NCBI RefSeq assembly: GCF_053078305.1
Contig: NZ_CP166879.1
Reading direction: 5' to 3' (one strand)
DNA: 64,000 nt
In this document: one piece after another, positions 37,401-40,400 of the stretch
Numbering within the stretch: the stretch's first letter is position 1
How the letters are laid out: every line of letters starts with the position of its first letter
Made by a program: the position numbers

Positions 37401-40400
37401 CCCAGCGTGGAGTATTTGGTGACGGTAAACTCACTGCCCGGGCTGGCGTGAATGGCTTCAACCATCAGTGTGACGCCTTCTTTTTTCAGCATCTGGCCCG
37501 CTTGCCCACGGGCGCTAAAGCCGCCATCACTGCTCAGGGTGTAGTTTTTGTCATCCAGCACATTAAGCGTAAACACCTGATCCGCCATCTCTTTCGGACG
37601 GTTAAAGGTAGTCACTTTCACCGTCTCGTTCTGGCGTCCCATCAGGCGATCCCAGCCCGCACCGAAAATCGGGAACGTGTTTTTGCTCACCGCAATATCG
37701 AGGTCGAGATCGTCCACCGTTTTACCAAGCACCAGGCGCGAACGAATCAACTGGATCTCGGCGTCCGATGCTGGCGGTTTGTTGGCTAACGCCGATCCGA
37801 TATCCTGCACTAACGAATTGCCGCTGCTTTGCTCGATTTGTACCAGTGCGTCGGCACTATAAATCGGCGTGGCGAAGAAGGTGTAAACCACGGCACAAAG
37901 GGCGAATACAGCGGTGATGCCAATCACCCACCAGCGCGCTTCAATGACGGTGCCGACCAGGCGACCAATATCGATTTCATCACTGCCCGTTACCGGAGCG
38001 GCATGTTGTTTTACTTTTTCTGTCATTCTTATACCTGCTCTGCGTTCAATGCCTGCGCCCACTGGCGGGCAGACCGTTCAAGTAATGTGTACACCGCTGC
38101 AAACGTTTCCCGGCTTTTGCGATACGGATCGGGGATTTCACATTCGTTATCCCAGTGACCAAACAGCATCACTTTGCCGCGCATCTCGGGTGCCATCTCG
38201 CATAAGCGTTCGATATGGCGCTTTTCCATGGTCAAAATCAGGTCATAGTTGCGACACAGGCGGCGGCTGATTTGTCGTGCACAGTGGCCTTCCAGAGACA
38301 GTTGATGTTCTGCGGCGACGCTGATAGCGGTAGGATCAGCGCCCTTACCGACCAGCGCGCCGAGTCCAGCGGACTCCACTTTCAGTTCCGGGTGATAACG
38401 TTGCAGTAAGCGTTCCGCCGTCGGGGAACGGCAAATATTGCCGACACAGACAACTAATATGTTGTTAAACATGACGATTACCAGTTATGAATGTCGCTGG
38501 CTGTATCCGTCATGTAACGGACACCGCTAATAGTTGGCAGCAACTGATTGATCAGACGGTTCCAGCGGGAAACCGGGGCGGTGGTGACATACACCACGTC
38601 ATAAGGTTGCAGGCGGAATTCTGTCGCCATCACCAGCGACGTGGCATCGGACATATCCAGCTGGTAGATATTGGCAATCTTGCCGTTACGCCCGCCCTCG
38701 CCTTTCAGCGGACGAATGACAAAGATGCCGCTGGCGTTGGAGGTGGTCATGTCGATGCCTTCAGCATTGCCCAGGGCTTCAGTCAGGGTCATGCCGCTAA
38801 AGTCCATTTTCAGGGTGCTCTGTTTCTTCACTTCACCCATCACAAATACTTTCAGATCATCATTACGTGGCACGTAGAGAATATCGCCGGGGTAAAGCAG
38901 GCGATTCTGGTTGAGGTCGCCGTTTTGCATCAGCGCCTGCAAAGAAATGCGCTCTTCACGACCATTGTGTGTTAGCACCACGTTGCGCCAGTCAGCGGTG
39001 TCGGTCAGGCCACCTGCGGCGTTGATGGCATCGAGAATGGTCAGTGGTACGTTGGTAATCGCCTGTTGACCGGATTTATTCACCTGGCCGGAGATATAGG
39101 CTTTTTGCGAGCGGAAGGCGGCGATATTAACGTCCACCTGCGGGTCAGCGATGTACGTCGCTAAGCGCCCGGTAATATCACTGCGGATTTCAGCGAGCGT
39201 TTTCCCCACGACGTGAACCTTGCCGATATACGGGTAGAACATGGTGCCGTCAGGCTGTACCCAGTTGCCGGTGTCGCTGGAACTGCGGTACTGACCAGCT
39301 GGCGTGGTGAGTTCCGGGTGATCCCAGACGGTGACATTAAGAACGTCGCCCGGCCCGACGCGATACTGGTAATTCGCGATCTCGCTTTCCAGCGTCATAT
39401 TGGGGCGCGCTACATTCGGGCGTGGGCGTAATTGGTCAATCAGGCGCGGGGTCAGCGGATACACATTCACCATTTTGTCGAGATCGAAATCAGCGTCCTG
39501 CTGTTTGATGACGTCTTTGCCCATCGTCGACATATTGCTGCCCGGAAGTACTGTGCAACCGCTTATCAAGGTTACTGACACCAATAATGGCATCAATTTC
39601 ATTTTGGATTTCATCATTGTTTATTTATCACTTTGGCAGAGTAATTATCCTGTGCACTATTAATAGCAATGTCGCCATGCACATTTACCTTGCAGTTAAT
39701 TGAATAAAAATTTAACTGGCATCAGTCCTAAAAAAATTGATTTCATCCGCAGGCTATTGACAGAATAATTCAGACTGGCTTTCAGGCATCCAGACACGCT
39801 ACCGCCCCTGGCTTTTTAGCTACCAATACACTGATTTAGCTTAATTTTTAAAACCCTCTCAACATACAGTCGTTGATGAGAAAGGGTTATTGCGGAAATT
39901 AACTTCCGAATATAAGGTGACATTATGGTAATTGAATATTGGCTCTCCAATAATGCAGGAGGAAGTGTTACAGCTAACGGAATAGCAGGCAAGGTAACAA
40001 TTCGGCAATTGGCTATTTTTAAGAATTATATTAAGTGTCATTCAATATGGTTTTTAGGAGTTTCTTTAGGTTGACAATATTTAATATTGCGTCTCCACAT
40101 GCGATATTTCTTAAATAATGTTTTATTATTACCACTTTTAATTCAGGGATAATGTGAGGTTATTACCCTCAAATAATATGAGATAAATAGTGCTGCAACA
40201 TTGCATTTTTGCCCCGATTTATCCATGATCGAATTGTGACATTTGTCATACAACGAATAGGTTTTGTACTTACTATGGAATGGATTGCCGATCCGTCTAT
40301 CTGGGCCGGGTTAATCACGCTGATTGTGATCGAACTGGTCCTCGGCATTGATAATCTGGTCTTTATTGCCATCCTCGCCGAAAAACTACCGCCGAAGCAG

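What the first reader, a model, noticed from the sequence alone, without database searches (positions are those of the whole stretch)
39780..39830. Second JUMPStart/ops copy in the long wza leader
The same GCCAGGGGCGGTAGCGTG block lies about 180 nt upstream of wza, inside a roughly 650 bp AT-rich leader that also faces the yegH promoter. I could not pinpoint the RcsAB box by eye.
Basis: partly seen in the sequence, partly recalled or inferred. Interest (0 to 1): 0.25.

Follow-up and report, generated by a model that had tools for sequence, protein, structure and literature searches.

The report
Known JUMPStart/ops site before wza

Summary
Confirmed and already known. The 18-mer GCCAGGGGCGGTAGCGTG occurs exactly twice in the window, at 39795-39812(-) and 14208-14225(-). 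About 0.05 matches are expected by chance. Both copies score as full-length Rfam JUMPstart (RF01707; 57.3 and 57.0 bits, threshold 35).

The copy at 39795-39833(-) lies on the non-template strand of wza. Its 3' end is 177 nt from the wza ATG (39617). It sits in the 657-bp AT-rich wza-yegH intergenic region.

The region is 98.4% identical to E. coli K-12, with an identical JUMPStart, and is present in about 4,820 of 5,426 complete E. coli genomes. Published ChIP-seq in strain CFT073 lists this same ops (GGCGGTAGCGTG, 190 nt before wza) as an RfaH-bound leader site.

A comparison of 18 enterobacterial species shows two conserved tandem RcsAB-like boxes, at 40055-40068 and 40020-40033 (both -). 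A conserved weak sigma-70 promoter follows: TTGCCT, 17 nt, AACACT, at 39992-39964. This predicts a 5' UTR of about 340 nt, not 650, with JUMPStart at about +125 to +163.

Interest is low. In passing: yegH is disrupted by a Mu-like prophage from about 40897.

The parts
39795..39833 (-). JUMPStart element (39 nt) of the wza/colanic-acid leader
   Evidence: Rfam RF01707, 57.3 bits, model positions 1-38 of 38. Identical in K-12. Near-invariant in about 4,824 E. coli genomes.
39795..39806 (-). ops, the 12-nt RfaH recruitment and pause signal GGCGGTAGCGTG, on the non-template strand of wza
   Evidence: Read directly from the sequence. The same 12-mer at the same distance from wza is listed as RfaH ChIP-positive in the CFT073 UTR. 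As single-stranded DNA it forms a marginal mini-hairpin: -0.9 kcal/mol, z = -2.15.
39964..39992 (-). Inferred wza promoter: -35 TTGCCT (39992-39987), 17-nt spacer, -10 AACACT (39969-39964). Predicted TSS about 39957.
   Evidence: Conserved blocks at 39995-39983 and 39977-39960 in 18 species. The spacing from the proximal box is fixed at 26-27 nt in 23 Enterobacteriaceae loci, window included, and 7 Erwinia-type loci. No TSS was measured here.
40020..40033 (-). Proximal RcsAB-like box B, TAATATAATTCTTA, centred at about -70
   Evidence: Matches the consensus TaAGaatatTCctA at 10 of 14 positions. Lies in the conserved block 40035-40016, mean identity 0.91. Its position relative to the -35 is also conserved in Erwinia amsG-type loci.
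40055..40068 (-). Distal RcsAB-like box A, TAAAGAAACTCCTA, centred at about -105. The conserved extension TATTGTCAAC reaches 40079.
   Evidence: Matches the consensus at 10 of 14 positions. Conserved blocks at 40079-40067 and 40063-40051. It lies 34-35 bp upstream of box B in 22 of 23 loci tabulated, window included. The two-box tandem is present in all 25 wza-adjacent loci with enough flank and in none of the other JUMPStart loci.
39618..39957 (-). Inferred 5' UTR of wza, about 340 nt, with JUMPStart at about +125 to +163
   Evidence: Inferred from the conserved promoter. The 5' end was not measured.
39603..39655 (-). Highly conserved wza translation-initiation region with no Shine-Dalgarno
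   Evidence: Mean identity 0.94 over 18 species. Best anti-SD duplex is -1.6 kcal/mol, among the weakest in the operon.
38478..39617 (-). wza, the first gene of the colanic-acid operon
   Evidence: ORF. NCBIfam PRK15078, 729 bits. RefSeq annotates the identical protein WP_000978094.1 as Wza.
14208..14246 (-). The other JUMPStart copy, between galF and the O-antigen cluster
   Evidence: Rfam, 57.0 bits. galF is 14497-15393, TIGR01105 at 689 bits.
40275..40898 (+). Divergent yegH (TerC family), truncated here by a prophage insertion
   Evidence: RefSeq annotation of the K-12 homologue. The ORF ends at 40901. Mu-like prophage sequence starts at about 40897.

Best explanation
This is the JUMPStart/ops element of the E. 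coli colanic-acid (wza-wcaM) operon leader.

Proposed mechanism: Transcription starts at a weak, Rcs-activated sigma-70 promoter about 125 nt upstream of the element. RNA polymerase then transcribes through it. The 12-nt ops on the exposed non-template DNA strand (GGCGGTAGCGTG, 39806-39795) makes the polymerase pause and recruits RfaH. RfaH-modified polymerase resists pausing, Rho and H-NS-mediated termination, so it can complete the roughly 24-kb operon. RfaH may also help load ribosomes on wza, which has no Shine-Dalgarno.

What is shown here:
- the element's identity, strand, position and conservation;
- its near-identity with the K-12 and CFT073 copies.

What is taken from the literature:
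- RfaH binding at this site;
- Rcs and H-NS control of the promoter.

What is inferred:
- the exact promoter and TSS;
- which conserved box is the RcsAB operator;
- the link to translation.
For: - The 18-mer occurs exactly twice, against 0.05 expected.
- Both copies are full-length Rfam JUMPstart matches, 57.3 and 57.0 bits against a threshold of 35.
- The motif is on the same strand as wza, so it is on the non-template strand. It lies 189 nt (ops start) before the ATG.
- The region is 98.4% identical to K-12, with JUMPStart identical, and is present in 4,818-4,824 of 5,426 E. coli genomes.
- In 26 loci from other Enterobacteriaceae, JUMPStart sits at the same distance (~180 nt) from wza.
- A conserved promoter-like block and two RcsAB-like boxes lie upstream, so the element is inside the transcript.
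- wza has the second-weakest anti-SD pairing (-1.6 kcal/mol) among the ORF starts tested across the operon.

Literature:
- PMC9976346 states that wca transcription uses a JUMPStart-RfaH antitermination mechanism plus RcsA/B, citing Stout 1996 and Hobbs & Reeves 1994.
- PMC9765446 reports RfaH ChIP signal at the wza ops in CFT073 delta-hns delta-stpA, with H-NS silencing the promoter in wild type. Its Dataset S2 lists GGCGGTAGCGTG, 190 nt before wza, non-template, in the UTR, RfaH = Y.
- PMC2478693 describes a single promoter upstream of wza with -10 and -35 sites and an RcsAB box.
Against: - Nothing here measures RfaH binding or any effect in this particular strain.
- The cross-genus loci were retrieved with the 18-mer itself, so conservation of those 18 nt in that set is by construction. 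Only the 5' half and the flanking architecture are independent evidence.
- The TSS is inferred. A simple consensus scan prefers a different, non-conserved promoter, TGGAGA-16-CATAAT at 39949-39922.
- In CFT073, RfaH was seen at wza only when H-NS and StpA were deleted. In ordinary laboratory conditions the site is transcriptionally silent.
- This window carries a rare 1-bp deletion 16-17 nt downstream of ops, of unknown effect.
Confidence: 0.93

Rival explanations
1. The conserved JUMPStart acts mainly as a structured RNA, the hairpin in Rfam's JUMPstart model, rather than or in addition to acting as a DNA ops signal.
For: Rfam models a 5-bp hairpin (UGGU...GCCA) just 5' of ops. Among 120 loci the 5' arm varies only as YTGGY, and every variant can still pair with the 3' arm GCCAG through C-G or U-G.
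Against: The predicted fold of the 39-mer is no better than shuffled sequence: z = -0.03 as RNA and +0.11 as DNA. The minimum-energy fold of the wza copy does not contain the Rfam hairpin. The 3' arm was fixed by my search pattern, so true covariation could not be tested. The established mechanism works through non-template DNA and RfaH; this is prior knowledge (Artsimovitch & Landick 2002, cited in PMC9765446).
Confidence: 0.1
2. The wza transcript starts at the E. coli-specific promoter-like site TGGAGA-16-CATAAT (39949-39922), giving a leader of about 297 nt. The conserved TTGCCT/AACACT block would then be something else, for example a regulator site.
For: It is the only site that passes the simple sigma-70 consensus scan in 39500-40400, with 9 of 12 matches.
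Against: The scan found fewer sites than the shuffles did (1 against a mean of 3.6), so the hit carries little weight. This stretch is among the least conserved parts of the cross-genus alignment (columns ~450-500). In contrast, TTGCCT-17-AACA(A/C)T is conserved at fixed spacing from the proximal box in every locus examined. Under either promoter JUMPStart remains inside the transcript, so the main conclusion does not change.
Confidence: 0.2
3. The copy upstream of wza is an inert relic: a duplicated 39-bp cassette with no role in colanic-acid expression.
For: The operon is silent in standard conditions, and RfaH signal at wza was absent in wild-type CFT073.
Against: The element is near-invariant in about 4,824 E. 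coli genomes. It sits at a fixed distance from wza in many genera. RfaH ChIP is positive once the promoter fires. PMC9765446 cites a study on RfaH control of colanic-acid synthesis in E. coli K92 (Navasa 2014).
Confidence: 0.03

Closest known systems
JUMPStart/ops of the E. coli K-12 cps (wza-wcaM) leader (Stout 1996; Hobbs & Reeves 1994) and the RfaH-bound wza ops of CFT073 (PMC9765446)
   Same: Same locus. The 39-bp element and the 12-nt ops are identical, on the same strand, at the same distance from wza (189 nt here, 190 in CFT073).
   Different: Only strain-level SNPs in the flanks, plus a rare 1-bp deletion at 39778/39779 that is shared by 6 of 4,824 genomes.
JUMPStart between galF and the O-antigen (rfb) cluster, the other copy in this window (14208-14246)
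   Same: The 3' 18-mer is identical and the Rfam score is equivalent. Both are on the non-template strand, ahead of a long polysaccharide operon whose first gene has a weak Shine-Dalgarno.
   Different: The flanks are unrelated. There are no RcsAB-like boxes upstream. It lies closer to its first gene (92 nt from ops start). The 5' half differs (CAGTACGCTGG against CAGTGTATTGG).
RcsAB box (Wehland & Bernhard 2000; consensus TaAGaatatTCctA)
   Same: Two 14-mers upstream of the inferred promoter each match at 10 of 14 positions, with a perfect right half (TCYTA), the half reported to bind RcsB. Both are conserved across genera. The rcsA promoter is also reported to have two boxes.
   Different: Each misses one of the five most conserved positions. 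Neither passes a search allowing 3 mismatches or fewer. I could not retrieve which one is the published wza box. No binding was tested.
amsG/wceG (amylovoran/stewartan) leaders of Erwinia and Pantoea
   Same: Same layout: an RcsAB box, then a proximal TCCTAAAA box 27 nt before the -35, then a weak promoter, then JUMPStart, then the first gene.
   Different: The canonical box (TAAGAATAATCTTA in E. mallotivora) lies about 90 nt upstream of the proximal box, not 35. The first gene is the glycosyltransferase amsG, not wza.

Membership tests
JUMPStart element (Rfam RF01707) | Full-length match to the 38-39-nt consensus at or above the curated gathering score | tested here: met
   57.3 bits against 35, model positions 1-38 of 38, E = 1.6e-10.
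ops (RfaH recruitment site) | The 8-nt core GGCGGTAG, or the 12-nt GGCGGTAGnnTG | tested here: met
   GGCGGTAGCGTG at 39806-39795. It is the same 12-mer as the RfaH-bound sites of CFT073.
ops (RfaH recruitment site) | Located on the non-template strand of the regulated operon | tested here: met
   The motif reads 5'-3' on the minus strand, which is the coding strand of wza (38478-39617, -).
ops (RfaH recruitment site) | Lies in the transcribed leader, downstream of the promoter and upstream of the first gene | tested here: inconclusive
   It is upstream of the wza ATG. A conserved promoter-like block lies 125 nt further upstream, and the alternative candidate promoter is also upstream. No TSS was measured here. 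PMC9765446 classes the site as UTR.
ops (RfaH recruitment site) | RfaH occupancy, and RfaH-dependent expression of distal genes | not testable with these tools
   Literature only. RfaH ChIP is positive at the identical site in CFT073 delta-hns delta-stpA. rfaH is not in the window.
JUMPStart RNA motif | A conserved hairpin supported by covariation | tested here: inconclusive
   Folding z-scores are about 0 and the minimum-energy fold lacks the Rfam hairpin. The 5'-arm variants are all compatible with pairing, but the 3' arm was fixed by the search pattern.
RcsAB box | A 14-bp match to TaAGaatatTCctA that includes the five most conserved bases | tested here: inconclusive
   Boxes A and B each match at 10 of 14 positions with 4 of the 5 key bases. 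A third site, 40100-40113, matches at 9 of 14 with all 5 key bases but is not conserved outside Escherichia, Salmonella and Citrobacter. There are no matches with 3 mismatches or fewer.
RcsAB box | Located upstream of an Rcs-dependent EPS promoter and conserved among enteric bacteria | tested here: met
   The boxes are centred at about -105 and -70 relative to the inferred TSS. The tandem is present in all 25 wza-type loci with enough flank and in none of the other JUMPStart loci.
RcsAB box | Bound by the RcsA-RcsB heterodimer and required for activation | not testable with these tools
   Literature says the wza promoter has an RcsAB box. I could not retrieve its exact sequence.

The most novel reading that the evidence does not exclude
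The wza promoter may carry two conserved operators rather than one RcsAB box. The proximal box B (TAATATAATTCTTAAAA, 40020-40033, centred at about -70) keeps a fixed spacing of 26-27 nt to the -35 from Escherichia to Erwinia. It may be a distinct, so far unannotated site, either a second RcsB/RcsAB dimer site or a site for another factor, that works together with a more variable distal RcsAB box. A related possibility concerns the 53-nt wza initiation region, which is 94% conserved and has no Shine-Dalgarno. It may be a dedicated RfaH-dependent ribosome-loading or regulatory site.
Probability: 0.25. Interest if true: 0.3.

Novelty: already known. Interest (0 to 1): 0.07.

Why it matters
The element explains how a 24-kb, AT-rich-promoted, H-NS-silenced capsule operon can be transcribed to its end once the Rcs stress pathway fires. 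This has been established since the 1990s and was reconfirmed by ChIP-seq in 2022.

For the scan, the value is mainly in annotation. The work confirms the window as the E. coli colanic-acid/O-antigen region. It fixes the coordinates of both JUMPStart copies.

Tried and rejected
- **RcsAB consensus search.** Searching TAAGAATATTCCTA with up to 3 mismatches found nothing in the intergenic region. The window total (6) was no more than chance (4.8). Consensus alone cannot place the box, so I switched to phylogenetic footprinting.
- **Simple sigma-70 scan.** It gave one candidate, 39949-39922. I rejected it as the main promoter because it is not conserved.
- **Single-strand folding.** Folding JUMPStart as RNA and as DNA gave z of about 0, so there is no thermodynamic support for a stable structure. 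RNAalifold on the whole leader found no convincing conserved structure beyond a weak hairpin overlapping ops.
- **Literature.** Stout 1996 (PMC178186) is not held. Full-text searches for the candidate box sequences found nothing relevant. Searches for 'wza promoter' gave no sequence-level data.
- **Third ops core.** The GGCGGTAG at 40386-40393(-) lies inside yegH on its template strand. It is an 8-mer expected by chance: 1.46 per window expected, 3 found. It is not an ops site.
- **Site at 40100-40113.** TAAGAAATATCGCA has all five key RcsAB bases but is conserved only in Escherichia, Salmonella and Citrobacter. I kept it as a minor candidate only.

Full report
**1. Observation**

The block GCCAGGGGCGGTAGCGTG is at 39795-39812 on the minus strand. 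An identical copy is at 14208-14225(-). Even with 3 mismatches allowed these are the only two matches, against 0.05 expected by chance; no shuffle out of 100 gave two.

Rfam's covariance model for JUMPstart (RF01707) matches both copies end to end: 39795-39833(-) at 57.3 bits and 14208-14246(-) at 57.0 bits. The gathering score is 35. Aligning the two copies with 100-nt flanks shows that similarity is confined to the 39-bp element.

A third GGCGGTAG, at 40386-40393(-), lies inside yegH on its template strand and is at chance level.

**2. Context**

The window is the E. coli colanic-acid / galF / O-antigen region.
- ORF 38478-39617(-) is Wza (NCBIfam PRK15078, 729 bits). Its protein is identical to RefSeq WP_000978094.1.
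- ORF 14497-15393(-) is GalF (TIGR01105).
- The divergent gene starting at 40275(+) is yegH, a TerC-family gene.

The intergenic region 39618-40274 is 657 bp. Its GC is 0.29-0.39, against 0.51-0.58 in the neighbouring genes. The 3' end of the 18-mer is 177 nt from the wza ATG, and the first base of ops is 189 nt from it. The motif reads on the wza coding strand, which is the non-template strand. RfaH recruitment requires this orientation (PMC9765446).

**3. Comparison with K-12 and other E. coli**

An 801-nt query spanning the region matches 4,838 of 5,426 complete E. coli genomes, and 4,818 at 80% coverage or more. K-12 is 98.4% identical, with JUMPStart and ops identical.

The window differs from K-12 and from its best match by a 1-bp deletion (AAAG-CCAG) at 39778/39779, 16-17 nt downstream of ops. 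Only 6 of 4,824 genomes share this variant. It falls in a stretch that is not conserved across genera, so it is probably neutral.

**4. Literature**

[quoted passage not shown] It cites Stout 1996, Hobbs & Reeves 1994 and Wehland & Bernhard 2000.
- PMC2478693 summarises a single promoter upstream of wza with -10 and -35 sites and an RcsAB box.
- PMC9765446 (mBio 2022) found RfaH ChIP-seq signal at wza-wcaM in CFT073 lacking H-NS and StpA. The promoter is H-NS-silenced in wild type.
- Dataset S2 of that paper lists the wza ops as GGCGGTAGCGTG, 190 nt from ops start to the wza start, non-template, in the UTR, RfaH signal = Y. The window has the same 12-mer at 189 nt; the 1-bp deletion accounts for the difference.

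**5. Cross-genus anatomy**

- In 26 of them JUMPStart lies about 180 nt before a Wza orthologue of 87-100% amino-acid identity. The genera are Escherichia, Salmonella, Citrobacter, Enterobacter, Atlantibacter, Superficieibacter, Cedecea and others.
- In Erwiniaceae the element precedes amsG/wceG or lies 420-450 nt before wza.

The 18-mer is conserved in this set by construction. The informative parts are everything else.

A MAFFT alignment of 18 species has a mean non-coding identity of 0.69 and shows discrete conserved blocks:

| Window coordinates | Content |
|---|---|
| 40079-40051 | Box A region, TATTGTCAAC..AAACTCCTAAAAA |
| 40035-40016 | Box B, CTTAATATAATTCTTAAAAA |
| 39995-39983 | ACCTTGCCTGCTA |
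| 39977-39960 | TTAGCTGTAACACTTCCT |
| 39827-39791 | JUMPStart, including its 5' half, which was not in the search pattern |
| 39735-39712 | Conserved leader block |
| 39655-39603 | The wza initiation region, mean identity 0.94 |

**6. RcsAB box and promoter**

Allowing 3 mismatches or fewer to the consensus gives no hit in the region. At 10 of 14 positions there are two sites: box A, TAAAGAAACTCCTA (40055-40068, -), and box B, TAATATAATTCTTA (40020-40033, -).
- Both end in the invariant TC(C/T)TAAAA. [quoted passage not shown]
- The tandem pair, spaced 34-35 bp, is present in all 25 wza-adjacent loci with enough upstream flank. The 26th wza-adjacent locus, L058, holds only 150 nt upstream and could not be scored. 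The pair is present in none of the O-antigen or other JUMPStart loci.
- In every Enterobacteriaceae locus, a -35-like TTGCCT lies 26-27 nt downstream of box B, followed by a 17-nt spacer and AACAAT (AACACT in E. coli). Erwinia loci have the same 27-nt spacing from a TCCTAAAA box to TTGTAA-17-AGTATA.
- Erwinia loci also carry a near-canonical RcsAB box further upstream. In E. mallotivora it is TAAGAATAATCTTA, about 558 nt before the amsG ATG. This agrees with my recollection of the published amsG site at -555 to -533. That figure is from memory and was not checked.

From this I infer the E. coli promoter at 39992-39964, a TSS at about 39957 and a 5' UTR of about 340 nt. JUMPStart then sits at about +125 to +163, box B at about -70 and box A at about -105.

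I believe the published wza RcsAB box is box A, at about -100. That also rests on memory, and I could not verify it. The rcsA promoter is reported to have two RcsAB boxes (PMC11879457), so a tandem arrangement has a precedent.

The only hit of the simple sigma-70 scan, 39949-39922, lies in a non-conserved stretch and is a weaker candidate. Either way JUMPStart is inside the transcript.

**7. Structure**

Folding the 39-mer as RNA or DNA gives energies no better than shuffled sequence (z = -0.03 and +0.11). The Rfam hairpin is not in the minimum-energy fold of the wza copy. The 12-nt ops as single-stranded DNA forms a marginal mini-hairpin (-0.9 kcal/mol, z = -2.15). This is in line with the published non-template-DNA hairpin recognised by RfaH; that comparison is prior knowledge. 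RNAalifold over the leader found no convincing conserved structure. What is conserved is sequence, which fits a DNA and protein recognition signal.

**8. Translation**

wza has no recognisable Shine-Dalgarno. Its best anti-SD duplex is -1.6 kcal/mol. By the same measure, most wca genes with confident starts score -5 to -11. Some ORF starts in that table are mechanical calls and may be wrong. The first O-antigen gene after the other JUMPStart is also weak (-2.6). This fits the published idea that RfaH substitutes for a Shine-Dalgarno by bridging polymerase and ribosome (Burmann et al. 2012, prior knowledge). Here it is only an inference.

**9. Verdict**

The element is already known, so interest is low.

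The only mildly new product is the comparative map of the wza control region: two conserved boxes, the promoter and an initiation region without a Shine-Dalgarno. The second, proximal box may or may not already be described.

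Noticed in passing
window 40897-64000 (junction at about 40897; genes at 41169-45239 checked): yegH is cut after about 208 codons by a Mu-like transposable prophage. 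Its left end reads TGTAACCAGGTGAATC. It carries a repressor-like gene at 41169-41729(-), a small ner-like ORF at 41915-42145, a 695-aa Mu-type transposase at 42148-44235 and an AAA ATPase at 44307-45239. Nine E. coli genomes carry the same phage at other sites (RHS, csiR, flgL and others). None has this yegH junction.
   Followed up: partly
window 39925-40074 (+): NCBI's annotation pipeline calls a 49-aa 'hypothetical protein' (WP_162829205.1) here in many E. coli genomes. It lies antisense across the inferred wza promoter and both RcsAB-like boxes. It has no family match, is not annotated in K-12, and its 5' part lies in poorly conserved sequence. It is probably a spurious ORF.
   Followed up: partly
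window 39778/39779: A 1-bp deletion (AAAG-CCAG against AAAGACCAG) lies 16-17 nt downstream of ops. Only 6 of 4,824 E. coli genomes that carry the region share it. Its effect is unknown.
   Followed up: yes
window 40199-40248: Three blocks just upstream of the yegH ATG are conserved across genera. They include the palindrome TGACAAATGTCA (40248-40237) and TTGCAT..CATGAT, which could be the yegH promoter and an operator. They lie more than 200 bp from the wza promoter.
   Followed up: no
window 39603-39655 (-): The 53 nt around the wza start codon are 94% identical over 18 species, more than the start of the coding region that follows, and contain no Shine-Dalgarno. A second conserved leader block is at 39712-39735.
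   Followed up: partly
window 25270-25319 (-) and 20811-20881 (+): There are two other Rfam matches above threshold. One is the algC RNA motif (77.3 bits) inside the colanic-acid cluster, downstream of cpsB and ahead of cpsG. The other is naRNA4, a REP-type element (79.7 bits), between two wca genes.
   Followed up: no
loci L027, L055, L061, L119 (genome contigs): Typical enterobacterial JUMPStart sequences turn up on short contigs (one, L055, at about 2x coverage) in assemblies labelled Arthrobacter, Erysipelotrichia and Peptococcaceae; a bare 18-mer without the JUMPStart 5' half turns up in one labelled Opitutales. These are most likely contaminating enterobacterial DNA.
   Followed up: no
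loci L011, L025, L028, L030, L069-L071, L076, L077, L106: A second recurrent class of ops context lacks the JUMPStart 5' half: CCTTATGGGCATCGGTTNACGGCCAGGGGCGGTAGCGTG. It may be the leader of a conjugative-plasmid transfer operon. Not checked.
   Followed up: no
loci L026, L034, L052, L059, L083, L100 (Erwinia/Pantoea amsG-type): These loci have the same promoter layout as wza, with the proximal TCCTAAAA box 27 nt before the -35 and JUMPStart 242-244 nt before amsG. The canonical RcsAB box, however, lies about 90 nt upstream of the proximal box instead of 35.
   Followed up: partly
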